Assembly (NCBI GenBank): GCA_964016885.1
Contig: OZ024741.1
Span: forward strand, 397,296,001-397,360,000
Source: Eledone cirrhosa
Taxonomy: Eukaryota
Reading direction: 5' to 3'
Length of the DNA: 64,000 nt
The translations under genes were made by a program, and so were the position numbers. Under the pieces are notes generated by a model, which was given only the letters and a program-made list of their open reading frames with translations, was not told the DNA's origin and did not search any database. Below are positions 51,851 through 63,944 of this stretch, piece after piece; position 1 is the stretch's first letter; every line of letters begins with the position of its first letter.

Positions 51851-52144
51851 CTTGTCGAAGTCTTTAACAAATAATTTCTCTTACAATTTTGAAGCAACTA
51901 CTTAAGTATTTGTTCCTAGTTTGGTGACGTCATTGTCCCATATCGGTGATGTGTTGGTGTAATAGTAACACAATGGTCTGGATAACCAAAGATGTATGTT
52001 CGACTCCCATGTACGTCAATACTCATCTTTTTGTCCATTTCTTAGAGGGTTCTAAACCCCACTATCAGGCTAACATTTCTTTAGTAAAAAAAATACGGCG
52101 AAAGCTTCTATTTCTAATTTCAAACTCGCTCGCGGTTTCAAAAT

Positions 52145-52200
52145 ATACATACATACATACATACATACATACATACATACATACATACATACATACATAC
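52145..52200. repeat. (ATAC)n microsatellite, about 14 units; tail of RTE stub
   Basis: Perfect tetranucleotide run directly abutting ATGATGATGGCTGCCCCCTCG. Confidence 0.97.
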
Positions 52201-52244
52201 ATGATGATGGCTGCCCCCTCGTTATCGAGTATGACCATTGCACG
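52201..52244 (-). mobile_element. Extremely 5'-truncated RTE-clade LINE copy (3'-terminal 44 bp only), candidate 6-bp TSD ATATAC
   Basis: Near-identical to the termini at 52598 and 62356 (minus strand CGTGCAATGG[T/C]CATACTCGATAACGAGGGGGCAGCCATCAT). ATATAC occurs at 52143-52148 and 52245-52250. Confidence 0.8.
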
Positions 52245-52399
52245 ATATACCATTATTAATAATGATTACTTATTTTATCATGCAATGCCTGTGCGTGAAA
52301 ATTTTTTTTAAGTGAGGAAAGACTGTGCACTGAGCCAATCCCACTCTTTGAGCGACAGTAGCTATAATCCGAAAAGAAGAAAAGATCAACATCATCGGT

Positions 52400-52530
52400 A
52401 ACGATTGAGCCGCAGGTTTTCTGTCGGAGTTGTCCCAGTTTCCTTAGTTGCCTTCTCCTAGAAGAATGCCCTGACAAAGGCTAGGGGTCCTTCACTCCCA
52501 GTGGTTTAACCGTGCGATCGGGTATCCAGC
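52400..52530 (-). mobile_element. Possible fragment of another retroelement (RTE-type 5'-region or SINE-like motif)
   Basis: The minus strand reads CCTAGCCTTTGTCAGGGCATTCTTCTAGGAGAAGGCAACT, with a CCTAG/CTAGG stem. This recalls from memory the CTAGGAGAAGG(A/C)AACT motif seen in RTE-related repeats. Boundaries are uncertain. Confidence 0.3.
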
Positions 52531-52597
52531 CAGACTATTCTATGTCCCCGCGTAAATAGATACACATGCACACATGCATATACATATATATATATAC

Positions 52598-52712
52598 ATG
52601 ATGGCTGCCCCCTCGTTATCGAGTATGGCCATTGCCATTGCACGAAAAAAAAAAATAAATAAATAAATAAAAAAAATAAAAAAAAAAATAAATAAATAAA
52701 TAAATAAAATAA

Positions 52713-52774
<62 letters not shown>
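52598..52774 (-). mobile_element. RTE copy 1, detached 3'-terminal part of the 3' UTR (split off by the Dong-like insertion)
   Basis: It has the same terminus plus A-rich/(TAA)n tract as the intact copy at 62356-62445, and is collinear with 55606-55883 once 52775-55605 is removed. Confidence 0.85.
52715..52774. repeat. (TAA)20 microsatellite, left flank of RLE element 1
   Basis: Perfect run ending exactly where the element's reading frame (GCT AAA GTC..., AKVTTHLCG) begins. Confidence 0.97.
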
Positions 52775-54652
52775 GCTAAAGTCACCACTCACTTATGTGG
52801 AGTGAAGATGAAAAAACAAAGGAATTCCCACAAGAAATCTACTTGGCAAGAGAACATCAATCGCCAAATAAACCTTCTCCGATCTGACATAGAAATTTTA
52901 ACAAACTATAAAGTAGGTGAACATGTTAAACAAACTAAACTTAGAAAATTGAAAAAAAAGTACAGTATAAAATCAACATGTGACATAGACATGCTGATAG
53001 AAATAATCAAGCAAAAAGTGTCGGCCAAAGCTGCTCGTATAAGGCGCTTTGAAAAACGATCTAGATTCTATAAGGACAATAATATGTTCAAAAACAACCA
53101 AAGAAACTTCTACAGAAAAATTGGTAAGTGCAAGGAGGAAGTGCAAGAATTCTGGGAAAAGATCTGGGCCGAAGAAAAAGTTCATAACATACATGCCCCA
53201 TGGATAGACAGACAAATGAAAGATACAGCTCACCTTGAGGAACAAACATGGGAAAATATAACAGTTGAACAGTTGCGCTTGGCTCTAAGAAAAACCAGCA
53301 AATGGAAATCCCCAGGAAAAGACAAAATACAAAACTTTTGGATAAATGCCTTCACAGAGTCTCATGAGCTGTTAGCCCAACTTTACAATGAAATAGTTAA
53401 GGAGCCAGAAAAGATACCTTCATGGCTAGTTAACGGCATTACATTCCTGCTTCCGAAGAATGATGAGACAAACAATCCCAAAAATTACAGACCGATAACT
53501 TGCTTGACCACAATGTATAAAATGTTAACATCAGTCCTAACTGAATACACATATGACCACCTGATAACAAATGACCTATTTCCCATTGAGCAGAAAGGGT
53601 GTAAACAAGGCTCATATGGCTGTAAGGATCAGCTTCTGGTTAACAAAATGATACTGGAAGATTGTCATAATAGACACACAAATTTATCGATTGCTTGGAT
53701 AGATTATAAAAAAGCATTTGATAGTTTGCCACACAGTTGGATTGAAAAATGTTTAGAGATTTTCAAAGTATCCTCCGTTGTCAGGAGGTTTTTGTCATTC
53801 AGTATGAAGACATGGAAAACGACACTCCTTTTGAATAGTGAAACAAAATCACTGGAAGCTGGAGAAGTTAATATTAAGTGTGGAATTTTTCAGGGTGACT
53901 CTTTATCACCGCTTTTATTCTGCATCGCACTTATACCATTAAGTAAAATGCTCAACGAAACAAAACATGGATATAAAGTCTATGACAAAACCATTAATCA
54001 CCTGTTCTACATGGATGACCTGAAACTATTTGCAAAAAATGATGAACAATTGCAAGGGCTATTATCCACTGTGAAGCAGTTCAGTGATGACATTAAAATG
54101 GAGTTTGGACTAGATAAATGCGCCAAAGTAACGTTCACCAGAGGAAAGCTGCTGAAGAGTTCAGACATTAATCTTGATCGCGGGAACGTGATAAGAGAAC
54201 TTGATCAAGAAAAAACTTACAAATATCTAGGTGTTTGTGAAGGAGACGGAATCAAGCACTCGACAATGAGGGAAAGGATAAGGAAGGAATGTTACCGCAG
54301 AGTGAGAGCAATCTTAAAAACGGAATTGAATGCAAGGAATAGGATAGATGCCATAAACACGCTTGCCATACCAGTAGTAACCTACAGTTACAATGTCATC
54401 AACTGGTCAAGCACAGAGATCCGTAGGCTCGATACAAAAATTCGAAAATTCTTAACCATGCACAGAATGCATCACCCTAAAGCAGATATAGATAGAATAT
54501 ATCTCCCTAGGAAAGAAGGAGGACGTGGGTTAATCCAGTTAGACATTGCGTTGAAAACTGCAACAATTGGATTATCTACATATCTAAGGGAATCACATGA
54601 TTGGATGATCAAACTGCTGAAATGGAAAACACAGAAAAAGCAAAGCAGGTAA
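52775..54652 (+). pseudogene. Reverse transcriptase portion of RLE element 1 (5'-truncated, frameshift/deletion near 54620)
   Basis: Motifs KSPGKD, NYRPITCL, QKGC, WIDYKKAFDSLPH, GIFQGDSLSPLLF, LFYMDDLKL, YKYLG and GGRGL lie in ORF 52802-54652. The frame is open back to 52775. Confidence 0.92.
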
Positions 54653-55461
54653 AAGTAACTGCAAAGAAAGAACTGCTACAGAAACTGGCTAAGAAATGGC
54701 AAGAAAAGCCTCTGTATGGAAAATACCCAGAGCGAGCTAACAATCCTGATGTTGACAAAACTTTAACCCATCAGTGGTTGGCATCCTCTGGACTGAAATC
54801 GGAGACTGAAGGACTGATTATATCGGCACAAGATCAGTGTCTGCCAACAAAAAAATACCAATCCAACATAATAAAAAATGGGTGCAGCCCATTATGCCGT
54901 GTATGCAAAAAACAACCAGAGACCATTGACCATATAGTTTCAATGTGCAGTCCTATAGCTCCAACCGAATACCTAAACAGGCATGACAGAGCTGCACAAT
55001 ACATACATTGGATAATGTGTAAGCATTTTGACCTGCCCCATCAAAAGAATTGGTGGGAGCATCAACCACCTCCCATACTTGAAAAAGATCACATCTCAAT
55101 CTTGTGGAACTTTAGCATCCAAACAGACCGAAAAATAGATGCAAACAGACCTGATATAATATTGAAAGACTTTCAAAAGAGGGTATGCCTGCTAAATGAT
55201 ATGTCTGTTCCAATAGACAAGAATGTATCTATAAAAACATTTGAAAAATTGAGCAAGTATAAGGACCTGGAGATAGAAATTGGAAAAATGTGGAAATTGA
55301 TAACTAAAACAATACCAGTGGTTGTAGGCGCTCTGGGAATGATACCTAAGGGGTCTAATGATTACATATCGCAAATCCCAGGAAACCCGCGTATAGGAGA
55401 AATACAAAAGATAGTACTAATGGGAACTGCCCATATACTAAGGAAGATTCTGTCAATATAA
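54601..55461 (+). pseudogene. C-terminal CCHC zinc knuckle and restriction-like endonuclease of RLE element 1
   Basis: CRVC-x8-H-x4-C, RHD, RPD...D and K..KY.DL motifs are present, and the ORF ends with MGTAHILRKILSI*. Confidence 0.92.
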
Positions 55462-55605
55462 GTACATCACAAGTCTAAACACTAAAGATGCATGTGTGAA
55501 TATGTATGTTCTTTCTTGAACATGGCGGACCTTGTTGTCTCTTGAGGTCACTGGTTGTGACTTGGTGATAACTCGTATGAACATGAAGCAAGATAAATGC
55601 AACTG

Positions 55606-55636
<31 letters not shown>

Positions 55637-55643
55637 AAAAAAG

Positions 55644-55680
<37 letters not shown>

Positions 55681-55883
55681 CATACATATATACATACACA
55701 CATACATACACACACACATATACACACGCATACATTAATAACAATAATAATAATAATAGCAATAATAATAGCAATAATAATAATAACGACAACAACAATA
55801 ATAATATACATATTCATATATATATACACACACACGCACGCACATAAGCATATCTACACACACACACACACACACGATAGCAA
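55606..55883. repeat. Compound microsatellite (TAA/A-run/TA/TACA/CA/TAA/CAA/TA/CA) forming the RTE 3' UTR
   Basis: The same order of repeat blocks and unique anchors (ACATTAATAACAATAATA, ACGACAACAACAATAATAATATACAT, AAGCATATCTACACAC, GATAGCAACTAAC) recurs at about 62425-62690. Confidence 0.9.
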
Positions 55884-56770
55884 CTAACAGTGCTGCGATC
55901 GAATGTGGCTTTTTAGCCCAGCCAATGATCTAAAATGTCTTGCACAGAGTCGGCAACCAAAACATTCACTGGGAATAGTCGGCTGTGGTTGGAGTTCGTG
56001 TACTTTTGCATGTCGCTTGAGCCCTCCTGCTGATTTACATTCTCTACCACATGTTTGGCAAGCATGATGAGTAGCATCTCCAACAGCAGCCTGGTAGTCA
56101 ACCACTGGTCTTACTTTATGACTGCGAAGATGACTTTCGAGTCCAGCTTTGCTTAGGCAGAGTCTCGCACAGACGCTGCATGTCAGCACCATAGGAGGAC
56201 CCTCGCCGTCTGGAAGTGCAACAGCAATGCCCTTCCTCACATCCCGCTTTACTTTCTCGTGTCGATTGGAGATGCCTCAAAGGCAACTTTTCCCTTATAT
56301 ACAGTCTTTCTCCATTTATTACGATCAGCAGCAATATTTTCCCATGTATCAGCAGAGATGTTAGCGTCTTTCAGAGAGGCTTTCAAGGAATCCTTATACC
56401 TCTTTTTTTGGTTTATGTGGCGGTCGTTTTCCTTTAACCAACTCTCCATAGAAGAGTTGTTTTGGTATTATAGAATCCTTCATCCTGGCAAGGTGACCAC
56501 TCCAACGGAGTCGTTGCTTAAGCACAAGAGCTTCTATACTGTCACATATAGAGCTTTCCAAAATCTCGACATCACTGATGTGGTCCCTCCAGTGAACGCC
56601 ATGGATCCGTCTGAGACACATCTGATGGAAACGCTCCAATTGCTTAAGGTGGTGTCGATATGTGACCCAGGTCTCGCAGGCATAAAGAAGACAAGAGAGT
56701 ACACATGCCCTGTACACCTTTACCTTTGTCCTCCTGCATATGTCTCGCCGACCCCAGAGTCGCCTTTCTA
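55884..56770 (-). pseudogene. RTE C-terminal region ending in three C2H2 zinc fingers (frameshifted)
   Basis: Fragments read VYRACVLSCLLYACETW, RLRWSGHLARM and RYKDSLKASLK, then CSVC..HLRSH, CQTC..HAKVH and CRLC..HIRSQH. The stop TAG is at 55886-55884. Confidence 0.88.
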
Positions 56771-58129
56771 GCTTTCCGAAAGCATCACTTTCCTAATCCT
56801 AAGTGAGATTTCACCGTCAAGGTTGCCGTATCGATTGACAGTGCTTCCCAGGTAGACAAACTGAACAACCACTCCAAGTCGTTTGCCATACACATAGATG
56901 TTTGGTTCAGTGTACTGCTTACTAGGGGCAGGTTGGTACATGACGACGGTTTTCTTGAGACTGACAGTCAAACCCAGGGCAGTGCAAGCGTCAGAAAATG
57001 CATTCAAAATGTGCTGCATATCACTCTCTGTGTGCGCTACAAGATCGCAATCATCTGCATACAAGAGGTCTCTTATGACTGATGTAAATACTTTTGTCTT
57101 CGCAGCAAAGCGCCTGATGTTAAATATGCTGCCTGAGGTTCGATATCGGATGTAAACACCAGGCTCGCAATTCCTGAATGCAATACAGAAAACCATTGCA
57201 AAGTATATGGCAAACAGGGTCGGTGCTGGAATATCCCCCTGTTTCACTCCATTTTTTACTGAGATAGGCTCCGACATGTTACCTCCGACATTAACCCAAG
57301 CCTTCATGTCGTCATTGAAAGACTTAACTAAAGCAAGGAACTTATCAGGGCAACCAAGTTTCTGGAGAACCTTCCATAATGCATCTCTGTTGACAGTATC
57401 GAAAGCCTTTGTCAGATCGACAAAAACCTGATACAGATCCAAGCGTTGTTCAATGCACTTCTCCTGGAGCTGTCTAGCTGAGAAGATCATATCAGTAGTG
57501 CCGCGTCCAGCACGAAAACCAGATTGACTTTCAGGAAGAACACAATCTGCAATGTGTGTCACTAGACGGTCCAGAAGCACCCTACATAAAACTTTCCCTA
57601 CGACAGAAAGCAATGATATACCTCTGTAGTTCCCACAATCATTCCTGTTACCCTTTCCCTTGTACAAGACCACCATTACTGCATCTCTCCAGTCCTCAGG
57701 TACGGATTCATTAGCACATATCCCTCCAAACAAAGAGTGAAGATGTTGCAGGAGTCTCTCACCACCATATTGTAGGAGCTCAGCATGTATGCCATCCATA
57801 CCTGGAGATCTTCCACTGTTCAGCTTCGAAATAGCCACTGCAACCTCCACAAGCGTCGGAGATTCTGCGAGAGCTACTTTCACAGGACTTTCTGGAATGA
57901 GATTGAGGAAATTTTCACTGACGACAGACGGCTGATTCAAAAGATCATCAAAGTGCTCTCGCCACCTTCGTAGAATTCCCTGTGAGTCACGAAGAAATTC
58001 TTTGCCATCCTTGCTGCGAAGCGGTGTCACCAGAGAAGAAGACGGTCCATAAACCTCACGCAAGAGACTGTACAAACAGCTTTGTGTTATTGGAATCAGA
58101 CGCAGTTTGTATCTCACCAGCCTTCTCAC
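56768..58129 (-). pseudogene. RTE reverse transcriptase domain
   Basis: SPGMDG, NYRGISLLSVVGKV, QSGFRAGRGTTD, FVDLTKAFDTV, GVKQGD, LLYADD, FVYLGS. Confidence 0.94.
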
Positions 58130-59423
58130 TCCACCACTGATCCTTCATCTGAGAAAGACTCCGCCTAACACGTGATTTTACATCCCTGAGTTCCTCATGC
58201 AACGTATTCCTCTCCTGTGGTTTTGCCGTCAAGTAGCGTGACAGAGCACGCCTCTTATCAGCCAACAAGTCTTCTATATGTACATCATTCTCATTAAACC
58301 AGTCCTGATGTGTTCTCTGCACCAATCCCAGAACACACCTGCCTACATCATAAACCGACTTTTTAAGGGTCGGCCAATCCTCACCAAGATCTGCAGCCTG
58401 CATCTCTTCTTCCAATGTCCTCTTCACATTTTTATCCTTAAGACGAGCAGCATTCAATCTTTTGGGCAGGGTAACACCAGGAGCCCGGATTTTACGTTTG
58501 GTGATTAGTTTCACTTTTGCGCGTACCAGGCGGTGGTCCGCCCAACACTCAGCTCCACGAAGAACACGAACACACTGCACATCCTGTCTGTCACGCATCC
58601 TGACTAGGACGTAGTCCAAAAGATACCATTCCTTAGATGCAGGATGCATCCATGTGGTCTTGAATTTGTTCTTTTGTTGGAACATGGTGTTGGTAACACA
58701 CAGATCCAGCTCCTCACACATCTGCAGCAGGAGCATACCATTGCTGTTACACTTTCCCACCCCATGCCTTCCGATTACATTCCATGTGTTAAAATCCCTA
58801 CCCACTCTAGCATTAAAGTCACCAAGCACGATGACTTTGTCTGCCTGAGGGATATTTCTTAGAACACCTTTCAAGGCATGGTAAAAGGACAGTTTTTCTT
58901 CATCGACAGAATTCATAGTTGGAGCATACACACTCACCGGGGTAGCATATCTTCCCTTGTCCAGCGGAACTCTCATGGACATAAGACGCTCACTAATCCC
59001 TACTGGGAATTCTTCTAATTTATTCACAAGTACAGTCTTAACAGCAAATCCTACCCCAGCCTCTCTTCTGGTTCCTTCATCTCTTCCTTTCCAGAAGAAT
59101 GTATATTCTCCACAAAATTCCGTAAGATGACCATCTCCAGCTAACCTCGTCTCAGATAAAGCCACGATGTCAAGATCGTAACGTCGAAGCTCCTTTGCAA
59201 CAAGAGCGGTCCTTCGTTCAGGACGCTCCAAGGAATCCCTGTCAAGCAGCGTCCGTACGTTCCAGCAGCCAAAACTAAATGCCCTGTTTGGCTCTATTAC
59301 AATGGCACGATGACGAGCGGGCCCAGGCTGTGATAACTTGGGGCCCCTGCCCTTATTGCCAATGATCTTTTTTGTTCCAGAACCTAAATTGCCAATTATC
59401 TCTTTTACATTGTTCTGGAACAT
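58056..59423 (-). pseudogene. RTE apurinic-like (APE) endonuclease domain and linker
   Basis: Motifs GCWNVRTL, ERRTALVAKELRRY, VALSETR, SVYAPT, VLGDFNARVG, LDYVLV and ADHRLV give the complete APE motif set. A frameshift near 58090 separates it from the RT. Confidence 0.93.
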
Positions 59424-59440
59424 CGTTGAATTGGAAAAAA

Positions 59441-59554
59441 ATATATACATACATATATATACATACATACATACATACATACATACATACATACATACAT
59501 ACATACATACATACATACATACATACATACATACATACATACATACATACATAC
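59441..59554. repeat. (TACA)n microsatellite (about 23 perfect units after a short TA/TACA mix), left flank of RLE element 2
   Basis: Read directly; it ends where RT-upstream coding sequence (VTEAPSQKDIDSFW) begins. Confidence 0.97.
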
Positions 59555-62036
59555 GTGTCACTGAGGCCCCATCCCAGAAAGACATAGATTCCTTTTGGAG
59601 AAAAATATGGGGTGAAAAGAAGAATTTCAACCAAGATGCAGTGTGGCTAAGAGAAATCCGAAAGAACTATTGCTCCTACACTACAACAAAAACATACGAA
59701 ATAAGTGAGGGTACCCTTGAAACTGTGATAGGAAAACTCCAAGATAAGAAAACACCAGGAAGAGACATGATTGTCGGCTACTAGTACAAAAAAACTGATA
59801 TTCTATCGGAGGTATCTTACTGACCTCTACCAACAAGTTCTTAAGGGAGATACACTTATACCAGAATGGTTGACATTAGCACAAACATTACTGGTCCCCA
59901 AGAATAAAAACACCCACTTGGCAAAAAACTACCGACCCATTGCATGCCAGAACCTGATGTATAAGACGTATACAGCCTGCTTAAACCTATTCCTCCAAGA
60001 TCACTGTGAAAATAATAACATCATCACAGATGAACAAGCAGCTGGAAAGAAAAGGGTTTGGGGATGTGCTGAACAACTCCTAATCAACAAAATTGCGATG
60101 TCAGAGGTGCGACAACTTAGGTTGAAATATGGCTACAGTCTGGCTGGACTACAGGAAAGCTTTCGATTCTGTTCCCCACTCTTGGATGATAGAGGCCCTC
60201 CAACTTGCTAAAGTCCCAGACATTATTGTCAGAGCCATAGAGAGGCTGTCTTCTTCTTGGGCTACTATCCTAAGGTTAAAGACAGAGAGGGATGACTCTA
60301 TTTTCACTGATAAAATAAAATATTGCAGGGGTATATTTCAGGGGGACAGTCTCTCTGTGATATTATTCATCTTGTCATTAAACCCCTTGTCCTTTCTACT
60401 CAAGAAATGTGAGGGATACATCATTGGCTCACAGGAGGACAGAAATATGAACCTAACCCATAATCTCTTTGTAGACGATCTGAAACTCTATGCCAAGAAC
60501 ATGGATGGGATGAAGAAAAATCTTGACATGATTACAACGTTCTCAAAGGATATAGGAATGGAGTTTGGCCATGATAAGTGCTCATACATGACTGTAAAGC
60601 GGGGAAAAACAACACCCCAATCTAGCAACATTGTCATCAATGGCCTAACTATTTCACAGATATCTGATGAGGACTGCTACAGATACCTGGGGATAGATGA
60701 GAACATATCTTATAATGGTATCTGTAATAAAGAACGCGTAACCAGGGAATACTACACCCGATTAAGAAAGATCTGGTCATTGGAACTCTCTGCGCAAAAC
60801 AAAACAGTGGCTCATAATGTGTTTGCTGTGTCTGTCCTAACACCAACGTTTGGAATACTCAATTGGACGATAGACGAAATCCGAGCAGTTGATGTTGGAA
60901 CTCGAAAAATACTGAACAACACCGGAAACTTCCACATCAACAGTGACATAGACCGCCTTTACTTGAAACGTAAGCAGGGAGGCAGAGGCCTAACATCAGT
61001 TCAGACAACATTTGAATGTCACATCATATCGCTCCGACAACATCTACGAACCTCGAAGCGTAGGAGCCCGTTTCTCGAGCAAGTCTATCTGCATGAAACA
61101 GATAAGATCATGAGAGTTGGGAAGGAACTCCTCGAGAGATATTCCCTGTGTGATAATCAAACATTCACACCCAGGGAATTCACTCAGCAGTATCGCAGTG
61201 AATCCATGGATGAAAAACTGCATCCTTATCAGGAAAAAATCATGCATGGATATATTGCCAGGAAGCTCCAGAGTGAGAGTAATATAGATAAGGAAAGTAG
61301 TCTATCTTGGACCAACAACCGCTATATTGGCTCCCACTTTGAAGGATATGCTTTTGCAATCTAAGAACAGGAGATTAACACGAAATACCTGATTCACAAA
61401 AGAGATAGGGATGCAGGCAAAAGACCTAGATGTGATAACAAGTGCAGACTCTGCAGAACTAACATCGAGGATATCACCCATGTCATCAGCAGCTGTCCAA
61501 AGATGTCATCGCGGTACTATCTACCTCTGAGGCATGATGTAGTGGCCAAAACACTGTACAATGCAGTTCGTAAAAAAGATAGCCCCGATAATAAACACAT
61601 TAAAAGCTACAGTAATGTGGAAGACATCCATGTACATAATATGAAAGAGTACTGGTGGAACGTTCCAGTAAAAACCCCAATAAAATGCAGGCATAACAGA
61701 CCAGATATTATGATATGGGACAGGGAGAAGAAAACATGCACAGTAGTGGAAATTAGCTGCCCAGCAGATGCCAATATAATATCAAAGATTAGTGAAAAAG
61801 AGAATATTTATGCAGAACTGATGAGAAATCTGCAGATACTCCACCTTGATTACACCTTCAGATTTATGCCTGTGATTATTGGGGCACTGGGATATGTTAG
61901 TAACTGCCTCAATACAAATCTTGAGAAGCTAGGCTTCACAGGAACAGAAAGAACACAACTAGTTAGAAAATTACAAGTACAATCCATTAATGGAACAGTA
62001 AAAATATGTAAAACATTCCAAAAATGTTGCATCTAA
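59555..62036 (+). pseudogene. Disrupted RT/RLE ORF of RLE element 2
   Basis: Motifs are TPGRD, NYRPIAC, WLDYRKAFDSVPH, GIFQGDSLS, LFVDDLKLY, YRYLG, GGRGL, CRLC-x8-H-x4-C (61443-61496), RHD and RPD...E. Lesions are TAG at 59782, frameshifts near 59790 and 60125, and TAA at 61362. Confidence 0.92.
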
Positions 62037-62280
62037 TAACTGCATATACACATGTACAGATACAAAGCATATACACATGCACACATACAACTCAAAACAT
62101 ACACATCCACACATACAATAACATCCATATCTACACATGCATGCATGCAGACATACATACATACATATCTACCTAGTTGATGTTGTGTAAATTCCAATGA
62201 GAGAGTCTTGTGTCTATGTTAGAAACCGACTCTCTCTCTCTATTGGTAAAACTTTGTGAAATTATAAAACCAGAAGAAAA
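59555..62280 (+). mobile_element. 5'-truncated RLE-type (R4-like) non-LTR retrotransposon, second family, flanked on both sides by (TACA)n
   Basis: It carries RT + CCHC + RLE motifs and a 244-bp 3' UTR ending ...CCAGAAGAAAA, immediately followed by (TACA)n. Its protein is clearly divergent from RLE element 1. Confidence 0.88.
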
Positions 62281-62355
62281 TACATACATACATACATACA
62301 TACATACATACATACATACATACATACATACATACATACATACATACATACATAC
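62281..62355. repeat. (TACA)n microsatellite, about 19 units, between the 3' ends of RLE element 2 and RTE copy 2
   Basis: Perfect run read directly. Confidence 0.97.
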
Positions 62356-62933
62356 ATGATGGCTGCCCCCTCGTTATCGAGTATGGCCATTGCACGAGAA
62401 AGAAAAAAAAAAAATAAAGAAAAATAATAATAATAATAATAAATAAATAAAAAGAAAATAAAAATTTAAAAAAAAAAGAAATATATATATATATATACAT
62501 ATACATACATATATACACACACATACTCACACACACATACATTAATAACAATAATAATAATAATAATAATAATAACAACAATAATAATGACGACAACAAC
62601 AATAATAATATACATATACATATATATATACACACACACGCACACACACAAGCATATCTACACACACACACACACATGATAGCAACTAACAGCGCTGCGA
62701 TCGAATGTGGCTTTTTAGCCCAGCCAATGATCTAAAATGTCTTGCACAGAGTCGGCAACCAAAACATTCACTGGGAATAGTCGGCTGTGGTTGGAGTTCG
62801 TGTACTTTTGCATGTCGCTTGAGCCCTCCTGCTGATTTACATTCTCTACCACATGTTTGGCAAGCATGATGAGTAGCATCTCCAACAGCAGCCTGGTAGT
62901 CAACCACTGGTCTTACTTTATGACTGCGAAGAT
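62356..62933 (-). mobile_element. RTE copy 2, 5'-truncated (last two zinc fingers + intact 3' UTR)
   Basis: 62678-62933 matches 55876-56130 with only one difference seen by eye (AGCGCT vs AGTGCT). It has an uninterrupted microsatellite 3' UTR and the CTCGATAACGAG terminus. Confidence 0.93.
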
Positions 62934-63033
62934 ACATACATACATACATACATACATACATACATACATACATACATACATACATACATACATACATACA
63001 TACATACATACATACATACATACATACATACAT
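62934..63033. repeat. (TACA)n microsatellite, about 25 units, at the 5' junction of RTE copy 2
   Basis: Perfect run; the junction GAAGAT|ACATAC shares 'AT' between element and repeat. Confidence 0.97.
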
Positions 63034-63140: not shown

Positions 63141-63566
63141 GGAGAGAACTCTCCCAGTTGTCAAGTAAACAGTACTTTATGATGTCCCGTCAAGCCGCAT
63201 AGCCTAATGGTTAGGATTGCAATGTTGTTGGTTCAATTCCTGGTCAGGCTGCTGTGTTGGGCAAAACACGTTGCTCCAATACACTCACTTGAGATGAGTA
63301 CCAGCTGGGGAGTTAATTCTGCGATAGACCAGCGTCCAGACCAGGGCGAGTGTTATACTCTTAGTCGCTTAAGGCCAAGGAAACGGAGATAAACACCGGC
63401 TTGAGCCTTCGTCCTAGAATAGACTTTTTACTTTAAAAGCTAAATCAAAGATCATCACACATCCTGTCATAAGGGAGAACACTCTCCCAGTTGTATAGTA
63501 TTTTCAAGGATAACCACATCTTGAATTAAGCTGGCTAACGGAGGGGAGAGCACTCTCACAGTTGTC
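63141..63566. repeat. Three dispersed copies of an approximately 22-bp quasi-palindromic motif GGGAGAG-CA-CTCTCCC-AGTTGT
   Basis: GGAGAGAACTCTCCCAGTTGT (63141), GGGAGAACACTCTCCCAGTTGT (63473), GGGAGAGCACTCTCACAGTTGT (63544). Confidence 0.8.
63193..63435 (+). mobile_element. tRNA-derived SINE with Pol III internal promoter
   Basis: It has an A-box-like TAGCCTAATGG (63200-63210) and a B-box GGTTCAATTCC (63230-63240). The central GTGTTGGGCAAAACAC and CTGCGATAGACCAGCGTCCAGACCAGGG segments resemble, from memory, CORE/V-type SINE domains. It ends in an AGACTTTTTACTTTA tail. Confidence 0.72.
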
Positions 63567-63680: not shown

Positions 63681-63757
63681 TTCTTCTTCTTCTTCTTCTT
63701 CTTCTTCTTCTTCTTCTTCTTCTTCTTCTTCTTCTTCTTCTTCTTCTTCTTCTTCTT
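63681..63757. repeat. (TTC)n microsatellite, about 25 units
   Basis: Perfect run read directly. Confidence 0.97.
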
Positions 63758-63856: not shown

Positions 63857-63944
63857 GAGGATCAATGGAGGAACAATCGAGGACCAATGGATGACCAATC
63901 GGGGACCAATCGAGGACCAATCGAGGACCAATCGAGGACCAATA
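63857..63944. repeat. 11-bp minisatellite (GAGGACCAATC) x8
   Basis: Eight consecutive 11-mers; six of them contain CCAAT. Confidence 0.92.

What the first reader, a model, noticed from the sequence alone, without database searches (positions are those of the whole stretch)
52143..63033. Microsatellite relay: one RTE LINE carries the landing pads used by two different site-specific RLE retrotransposons
Seen: the RTE family has (TAA)n inside its 3' UTR and (TACA)n-type repeats at its 3' end (three copies: 52201, 52598, 62356). RLE element 1 (52775-55605) splits RTE copy 1 exactly inside that (TAA)n, and RTE copy 2 shows the empty site. RLE element 2 (59555-62280) splits the (TACA)n tract that abuts the 3' end of RTE copy 2. 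Both guests are antiparallel to the RTE. Established: Dong/R4-clade elements are sequence-specific for TAA repeats. Inference: the RTE spreads or expands target sites for two hyper-parasitic families, which would give self-reinforcing nests. I am not aware of this three-way dependency having been described.
Basis: partly seen in the sequence, partly recalled or inferred. Interest (0 to 1): 0.75.

Follow-up and report, generated by a model that had tools for sequence, protein, structure and literature searches.

The report
Retrotransposons sharing two microsatellite targets
Five jumping-gene copies are stacked in one TACA repeat: the RTE element sits inside TACA/TA repeats itself, so it likely shares that target rather than supplying it, while the TAA runs in its untranslated ends host a TAA-seeking family only occasionally, about as often as their share of all TAA runs.

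Summary
The nest is real; the 'relay' is half right. One (TACA)n tract holds a non-autonomous RTE derivative (52201, not an RTE copy), two RTE LINE copies (-) and RLE-2 (+). RLE-1 (+) sits in the (TAA)n of RTE copy 1's 3' UTR. TAA half: the UTR TAA runs belong to the family (16 of 16 copies), but hold only 1 of 50 RLE-1 and 3 of 30 RLE-3 ends, against a 10-20% share of TAA tracts. TACA half: the tract is not an RTE tail. RTE-type elements have TA/CA/TACA on both flanks, some pure (TA)n. RLE-2 abuts an RTE-type end in 19 of 57 loci (the LINE itself in 2), against 16-31% of background tracts, and is older (2.8% vs 1.5-2.0%). Best reading: strand-opposed sharing of pre-existing microsatellites, with the RTE as a minor passive bridge from TACA stacks to TAA stacks. 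The new part is a TACA-specific RLE and an RTE lineage that likely targets microsatellites. This scan had already noted both on other DNA of this genome.

The parts
52145..52202 (+). (TACA)14, left end of the shared TACA target tract
52201..52597 (-). Non-autonomous RTE derivative ('SINE-A', my label). It has the LINE's 3' terminal 40-45 bp joined to sequence like the LINE's 5' UTR, is 5'-truncated here at an internal TA/CA run, and is 5.7% from its family majority
52598..52645 (-). 3' terminal segment of RTE copy 1 (predicted stem-loop only weakly supported, z -0.3 to -2.2)
52645..52774 (+). A-rich/(TAA)n run of the RTE 3' UTR, left of RLE-1 (about 20 TAA units)
52775..55605 (+). RLE-1: Dong-like non-LTR element (RT, CCHC knuckle, RHD, PD..D..K), 5'-truncated, with an internal gap of about 94 bp relative to sister copies and a frame change; TAA-specific family with at least 2341 3' ends
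55606..55878 (-). Rest of the RTE 3' UTR: (TAA)7, A run, TA/CA run, second TAA/CAA run, CA run; same layout in sister copies
55879..59440 (-). RTE copy 1 coding region (APE endonuclease, RT, two C-terminal C2H2-like fingers; frameshifted). It stops at the T-rich start of the 5' UTR; family has at least 2142 ORF ends
59441..59554 (+). (TACA)29 between the 5' end of RTE copy 1 and the 5' end of RLE-2
59555..62280 (+). RLE-2: RLE-type non-LTR element (RT, CCHC, RHD, PD..E), 5'-truncated, with stops and frame changes; TACA-specific family with at least 5501 3' ends; 38-40% identical to RLE-1 over RT, 26-29% over the C-terminus
62280..62357 (+). (TACA)19 between the RLE-2 3' end and the RTE copy 2 3' end
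62356..62931 (-). RTE copy 2, 5'-truncated, with empty UTR TAA sites; 1 difference from copy 1 in 253 coding bases
62932..63033 (+). (TACA)25 at the 5' truncation point of RTE copy 2, right end of the shared tract

Best explanation
This is a stack of retrotransposons in one TACA microsatellite, in which the RTE family and RLE-2 sit on opposite strands of the same repeat and likely each target it independently, while RLE-1 sits in a TAA run that the RTE carries in its UTR and likely found it as one ordinary TAA site among many. Steps. (1) Shown: RLE-2 ends in TACA repeats and RLE-1/RLE-3 in TAA repeats, with the repeat on their sense strand. RTE-type elements lie in TA/CA/TACA repeats with the complement on their sense strand. 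(2) Inferred from target-primed reverse transcription: the RLE nicks the ATGT (or TTA) strand and the RTE endonuclease nicks the TACA/TA strand, where the RNA 3' end can pair. Opposite orientation then follows automatically. (3) Shown in part: each insertion leaves repeat on both sides, with short duplications of about 10-15 nt. Inferred: each insertion thereby leaves sites for the next, whichever family makes it. (4) Shown: RTE UTRs carry TTA on the sense strand, so a TAA-seeking RLE entering them must be antiparallel. Inferred: this lets TAA-type elements nest inside TACA stacks, a passive bridge that supplies a few percent of their sites.
For: Target specificity: TAA follows 50 of 50 RLE-1 and 30 of 30 RLE-3 3' ends. 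A TACA-type repeat follows 29 of 30 and 30 of 30 RLE-2 ends and precedes 37 of 43 mapped RLE-2 5' ends (counted by eye). RTE-type elements as guests of the repeat: in the first 1.0 Mb of evenly spaced sample, 17 of 22 3' flanks are alternating TA/CA repeat against 7% of random 24-mers, and 10 of 22 have fewer than two ACAT units beside the end. 44 of 45 heads of the non-autonomous derivatives are followed by such repeat, 13 of 14 in the evenly spaced sample, and several have (TA)n on both sides with matching short duplications (L128, L138, L195, L205, by eye). RLE-2 5' junctions abut RTE-type heads or truncation points in 10 of 43, so the association is not tail-specific. No excess over length-matched tracts: p=0.33 and 0.83 for TACA>=4 and >=6; LINE itself 2 of 57 vs 8 of 148, p=0.73. 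RTE-borne TAA: 4 of 80 RLE ends vs 10 of 102 tracts (p=0.27) or 7 of 40 (p=0.04, depleted). On C1, 0 of 100 RLE-1 and 5 of 100 RLE-3 lie in an RTE 3' UTR. Ages: RLE-2 2.8%, Tx1 2.8%, SINE-B 2.0%, RTE 1.5%, RLE-1 1.0%, RLE-3 0.7%. In 7 of 9 datable tail-to-tail pairs RLE-2 is the more diverged partner.
Against: Against all short tracts RLE-2 is about 2-fold enriched next to RTE-type ends (19 of 57 vs 24 of 148, p=0.012). If RTE insertions themselves lengthen TACA tracts, length-matching hides a real RTE contribution. Only 6 of 9 RTE LINE 5' junctions away from the intact 5' UTR are clearly in TA/TACA repeat, two of them the window's own; three join other sequence (by eye). The background is small (1.4 Mb, 140 stretches), clumped in 6-11 stretches, and includes tracts already occupied by elements. 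Three of the five RLE samples are the first 30 hits on C1 and two share a rare terminal variant. Per-copy ages on 400 bp are noisy: RLE-1 must postdate RTE copy 1, yet scores 1.0% vs 0.7%. No enzyme assay and no empty-allele data.
Confidence: 0.72

Rival explanations
1. Relay or hyper-parasitism: the RTE machinery creates or lengthens TACA tails and spreads TAA runs, and the two RLE families depend on these.
For: UTR TAA runs are heritable parts of the RTE. RTE-borne runs are 10-20% of TAA tracts, and 5 of 78 RTE copies on C1 0-89 Mb carry RLE-3. 31% of TACA>=6 tracts abut an RTE-type end, and RLE-2 is about 2-fold enriched against short tracts. RTE elements generating microsatellites is published for Lepidoptera (PMC2887409, abstract).
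Against: At least 90% of sampled TAA-RLE ends and 55 of 57 RLE-2 ends are not at the RTE LINE. RLE-2 is older than the RTE and SINE-B. Pure (TA)n flanks show no obligate TACA tail. A Tx1-like LINE end (17 of 80) and other RLE copies are commoner neighbours of TAA-RLEs than the RTE.
Confidence: 0.13
2. Passive accumulation: the elements insert broadly but survive mainly in repeat-rich, low-recombination DNA (here beside a 51-kb satellite), so the nests reflect retention rather than targeting.
For: Proposed for Waldo-A/B in CA repeats (PMC3812793, passages). The nest sits next to a 44-bp satellite array. (TA)>=8 tracts are very common, 661 per Mb.
Against: Junctions are base-adjacent and strand-fixed in every family sampled, which retention alone does not predict. 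Young copies (about 1%) show the pattern as fully as old ones.
Confidence: 0.1
3. Mis-assembly joined through microsatellites.
For: All joints are simple repeats, and no spanning long reads were examined.
Against: The same junction types recur elsewhere: 401 RLE-2/RTE-type joints, and RLE-1 in the same UTR run at L045. The two halves of RTE copy 1 continue the family's UTR layout across RLE-1.
Confidence: 0.03

Closest known systems
Dong, DongAg, DongBg (TAA-targeting; R4 clade by recall)
   Same: RLE-1 and RLE-3 are followed by TAA in 80 of 80 sampled ends and have RT + CCHC + RLE motifs. TAA targeting by Dong, including a snail member, is stated in PMC3812793 (passages). A Dong is reported in Octopus bimaculoides (PMC9115989, passages).
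   Different: RLE-2 has the same domain order but uses (TACA)n and is only 26-29% identical to RLE-1/3 in the endonuclease region. No TACA-specific RLE turned up in searches; Repbase could not be searched.
Octopus vulgaris brain-expressed RTE LINE (Petrosino et al. 2022, PMC9115989)
   Same: EN + RT + C2H2 finger, UTRs of about 600 nt, and a 3' UTR made mostly of microsatellite (passages).
   Different: Its 12 published primers match the window RTE with 4-8 mismatches each, so it is not the same family at DNA level. The passages read do not describe insertion into microsatellites.
RTE-clade insertion signatures (Nishiyama and Ohshima 2018, PMC6007223; Bov-B/Sauria 2026, PMC13295347; Tay et al. 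2010, PMC2887409)
   Same: 3' microsatellite-like ends that may guide cleavage or priming, TA at cut sites, and non-autonomous partners sharing the 3' end.
   Different: [quoted passage not shown] Here both flanks are TA/CA/TACA repeat, and the repeat type varies with the site.
Waldo, Mino, Kibi, Koshi (APE elements targeting ACAY, AC, TC, TTC repeats); Togen and some HERO (RLE, microsatellites)
   Same: Microsatellite targeting has arisen in several clades, and WaldoAg targets ACAY, which overlaps TACA.
   Different: Those are R1/Tx1 or NeSL/HERO lineages (clade labels partly recalled). The passages read do not describe opposite-strand sharing of one tract or an RTE member.

Membership tests
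RTE clade LINE | Single ORF with APE endonuclease followed by RT | tested here: met
   Pfam Exo_endo_phos E=2e-12 and RVT_1 E=2e-31 in consecutive frames of copy 1
RTE clade LINE | Microsatellite-rich 3' end and non-autonomous partners sharing the 3' terminus | tested here: met
   16 LINE-type and 14 derivative-type loci among 30 with the same 3' terminus
RTE clade LINE | RT phylogeny groups with named RTE elements | not testable with these tools
   No named reference sequences were available; assignment rests on architecture and recalled motifs
R4/Dong clade (RLE-1) | RT followed by CCHC knuckle and PD-(D/E)xK restriction-like endonuclease, no APE | tested here: met
   CxxC-H-C, RHD, RPD..D..P and K..KY motifs; no APE hit
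R4/Dong clade (RLE-1) | Insertion into (TAA)n | tested here: met
   50 of 50 other 3' ends followed by TAA
R4/Dong clade (RLE-1) | No N-terminal zinc finger/Myb as in R2 (feature recalled) | tested here: inconclusive
   The N-terminal ORF of a full-length sister copy (L040) shows no CxxC..H motif by eye; no profile test
R4/Dong clade (RLE-2) | RT + CCHC + RLE domain order | tested here: met
Dong proper (RLE-2) | TAA target | tested here: not met
   59 of 60 3' ends in TACA-type repeat; it works like Dong but on another repeat
R4/Dong clade (RLE-1, RLE-2) | RT phylogeny with named R4, Dong, Rex6 | not testable with these tools
   The 120 listed best of 628 homologs carry no informative names; PDB search of the RLE region gave no relevant hit
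TE-targeting (hyper-parasitic) retrotransposon | Most copies lie in the host element | tested here: not met
   RLE-1 1 of 50 and 0 of 100; RLE-2 2 of 57 at the LINE, 19 of 57 at any RTE-type end

The most novel reading that the evidence does not exclude
An RTE-clade lineage has become a true microsatellite targeter (TA/TACA, fixed strand) and shares that repeat with a new TACA-specific RLE branch. Because its UTRs carry TAA runs, it couples the genome's TACA and TAA insertion communities into mixed self-extending stacks, and it may lengthen TACA tracts enough to be a main supplier of long RLE-2 sites.
Probability: 0.45. Interest if true: 0.55.

Novelty: new variant of a known kind. Interest (0 to 1): 0.4.

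Why it matters
RTE elements are usually described as having only weak site preference, and known Dong elements target TAA. A microsatellite-homing RTE and a TACA-homing RLE in one genome, beside TAA-homing sisters, give natural enzyme pairs for asking how endonucleases and RNA 3' ends choose targets, which bears on site-directed retrotransposon tools. It also explains why microsatellite markers and assemblies are difficult in such genomes. The three-way dependency that made the finding striking is not borne out, which lowers the interest.

Tried and rejected
(1) A DNA similarity search of the own genome with the RTE finger region returned nothing, because common words are skipped; exact patterns were used instead. 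(2) The first terminal patterns for RLE-2 and RLE-1 (31 and 21 hits) carried rare variants; the general patterns gave 5501 and 2341. (3) Rfam found no ribozyme or structured RNA in the nest or in three loci with full-length derivatives or the 5' UTR, only microsatellite-driven miRNA matches below threshold. (4) A stem-loop at the shared 3' terminus is not clearly better than shuffles (z -1.1, -0.3, -2.2). (5) Identity with the O. vulgaris brain RTE is rejected at DNA level by primer mismatch. Its sequence was not found in the 4 of 8 supplement files searched; 4 were not searched and 2 more were too large to read. (6) Protein homolog and PDB searches gave no named clade anchors. (7) The spacer between the RLE-2 end and an RTE-type end peaks at about three TACA units (29 of 100 listed), but this fits either order of insertion. 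(8) The sequencing-run search listed short-read contig and RAD-seq data only; nothing was laid, so the assembly was not checked with reads. (9) A genome-wide count of derivative heads followed by TA/TACA was not obtained; that claim rests on 45 sampled heads. (10) The evenly spaced background stayed at 1.4 Mb. Rows dropped before counts: RLE-2 57 of 60 loci (window copy, a 25-bp fragment, one tandem duplicate); RLE-1 50 of 51 (window copy); heads 45 of 47 (two wrong-strand matches). L006 has a further RTE-like end variant and L051 a Tx1-like end that the scripted patterns missed.
Full report
Setting. The window lies on contig C2 (416 Mb) of a 3.0-Gb animal genome. Bases 1-51581 are a 44-bp satellite. 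The repeat content resembles that of an octopod (inference from the RTE architecture in PMC9115989; not established here). The labels RLE-1/2/3, SINE-A/B and RTE-A are mine.

Anatomy. From left to right, one TACA tract is interrupted four times: (TACA)14, a non-autonomous element (52201-52597, minus), RTE copy 1 (52598-59440, minus), (TACA)29, RLE-2 (59555-62280, plus), (TACA)19, RTE copy 2 (62356-62931, minus), (TACA)25. RTE copy 1 encodes APE and RT and two C2H2-like fingers, with frameshifts. RLE-1 (52775-55605, plus) interrupts its 3' UTR, with about 20 TAA units on the left and 7 on the right; copy 2 has six at the empty site. Both RLEs show RT, a CCHC knuckle and restriction-like endonuclease motifs, and are 38-40% identical over RT and 26-29% over the C-terminus. 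The 52201 element shares only the last 40-45 bp with the LINE. Among 30 loci with that terminus, 16 continue into the LINE's UTR and 14 into this short family (a few lines of that output were cut). Full-length LINEs continue at their 5' end through a TAA run into sequence like this short family, so it is likely an internally deleted derivative (SINE-A). A related family, SINE-B, has at least 7838 heads.

Family sizes, as exact-match lower bounds: shared RTE/SINE-A 3' end 5028, RTE ORF end 2142, RLE-1 2341, RLE-2 5501, and a third TAA-type family, RLE-3, 3714.

The TAA half. All 16 LINE-type loci carry at least four TAA units in the 3' UTR and two hold an RLE-3 there, so the pad is a real, inherited part of the RTE. 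TAA follows 50 of 50 RLE-1 and 30 of 30 RLE-3 ends, but the tract belongs to an RTE UTR in only 1 and 3 of them. Cross-referencing listed coordinates on C1 gives 0 of 100 RLE-1 and 5 of 100 RLE-3 within 600 bp of an exact RTE ORF end. In 1.4 Mb of evenly spaced stretches, RTE-borne tracts are 10 of 102 at four or more units, 7 of 40 at six or more, and 5 of 25 at eight or more. So there is no enrichment (p=0.27; p=0.04 towards depletion). The commoner neighbours are an antiparallel Tx1-like LINE ending in ATT repeats (17 of 80; clade label from recalled motifs) and other RLE copies (17 of 80 RLE-1 within 7 kb of a same-strand RLE-3, 0.6 expected; 1 on the opposite strand). RLE-1 and RLE-3 are as young as or younger than the RTE (1.0%, 0.7% and 1.5%; differences not significant), which allows the nesting seen.

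The TACA half. RLE-2 is TACA-specific: 59 of 60 3' ends and 37 of 43 mapped 5' ends (by eye). 401 of 5501 ends lie within 35 nt of an RTE-type 3' end, about 100 times the uniform expectation. In 57 loci, 19 abut such an end: 14 SINE-B, 3 SINE-A and 2 the LINE. The background share of TACA tracts with such an end is 24 of 148, 17 of 68 and 12 of 39 at three, four and six or more units, and 29-32% when weighted by target sites (p=0.012, 0.33, 0.83). The tract is not an RTE tail. Both window copies have TACA at their 5' junction. 44 of 45 derivative heads are followed by TA/CA/TACA repeat, and several copies lie in pure (TA)n with matching short duplications on both sides. 17 of 22 3' flanks in the first 1.0 Mb of the sample are alternating repeat, against 7% of random 24-mers. 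RLE-2 5' ends abut RTE-type heads in 10 of 43. RLE-2 is older than the LINE and SINE-B (2.8% vs 1.5% and 2.0%; p=2e-4 and 9e-6 without CpG columns) but younger than SINE-A (4.5%, p=0.035). Of 9 datable pairs among the 19, RLE-2 is more diverged in 7, equal in 1 and less in 1. In most tail-to-tail pairs the RTE-driven element is therefore more likely the later arrival.

Mechanism. By established target-primed reverse transcription, the strand nicked first is the one complementary to the element's sense strand at its 3' junction. RLE-2 would nick the ATGT strand, the RTE the TACA/TA strand, and RLE-1 the TTA strand (inferred). Antiparallel order thus needs no co-adaptation. Each insertion leaves repeat on both sides, so stacks grow from any family. 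The RTE's one special role is that its UTRs import TAA runs into TACA tracts, which lets TAA-type RLE and Tx1 elements nest there (seen at L045, L073, L079, L084, L158, L182). That bridge is real but supplies roughly 1-10% of their sites.

Limits. The background is small and clumped, and it includes occupied tracts. Several samples are the first hits on C1. Per-copy ages are noisy: RLE-1 scores older than the RTE copy it interrupts. Length-matching could hide an RTE role in lengthening TACA tracts. Three of nine LINE 5' junctions are not in repeat. No reads, empty alleles or assays were examined.

Literature. What I saw: passages of PMC3812793 (Dong targets TAA; Waldo ACAY; Kibi, Koshi); the abstract and outline of PMC2887409 (RTEs generate microsatellites); passages of PMC6007223 and PMC13295347 (RTE insertion signatures); passages of PMC4640811 (RLE clades target repeats, including transposons and microsatellites); and passages, section 27 and 4 of 8 supplement files of PMC9115989 (octopus RTE with a microsatellite 3' UTR, and a Dong). 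Seven full-text searches showed no paper on a TACA-specific RLE, a microsatellite-targeted RTE or this nesting; for most hits I saw only the listing. Repbase, Kojima and Fujiwara 2004, and the unsearched supplements could hold such families. Earlier notes of this scan report the same opposite-strand sharing at CATA and TAA repeats elsewhere in this genome. They are unreviewed AI notes and not independent support; my counts were made before I saw most of their content.

Verdict. A real nest with a real but minor TAA hand-over. The proposed three-way dependency on the RTE is not supported. The lasting points are a TACA-specific RLE family and an RTE lineage that likely targets microsatellites: a new variant of known kinds, interest 0.4.

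Noticed in passing
window 1-51581: Uninterrupted array of a 44-bp CT-rich satellite, about 1178 copies; the nest begins about 560 bp after its end.
   Followed up: no
window 51947-52019 (+): tRNA-Ser(GGA)-like sequence found by ARAGORN and Rfam (34.7 bits), between the satellite and the nest; may be a tRNA gene or a SINE head.
   Followed up: partly
window 63190-63430: A tRNA-like, SINE-looking stretch right of the nest (seen; not called by ARAGORN), followed by (TTC)25 at 63681-63757 and an 11-bp tandem at 63857-63943.
   Followed up: no
L100, L103, L104, L109 (downstream of RLE-3): Abundant Tx1-like LINE (RT plus zinc-binding motif, polyadenylation signal, ATT repeat end) lying antiparallel to TAA-type RLEs; 14 ends in 1.4 Mb; one copy sits inside an RTE UTR (L158).
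   Followed up: partly
L016:216-890 and L024:1597-2029: RTE fragments in the opposite orientation to the usual one beside TACA; possibly 5' inversions or a second RTE family (85% identity in L024).
   Followed up: no
L008, L016, L075, L081, L236 (left of TACA tracts): A recurring unidentified element end abuts TACA tracts; other unidentified ends abut TAA tracts repeatedly (L048, L050, L244, L253, L255), suggesting more repeat-targeting families.
   Followed up: no
L156:5700-8600: Head-to-tail array of SINE-B copies separated by (TACA)8-19, followed by SINE-A.
   Followed up: partly
L005, L020, L235 (right of RLE-2 plus TACA): More diverged RLE-like sequence in the same orientation as RLE-2, suggesting at least one further TACA-type RLE family.
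   Followed up: no
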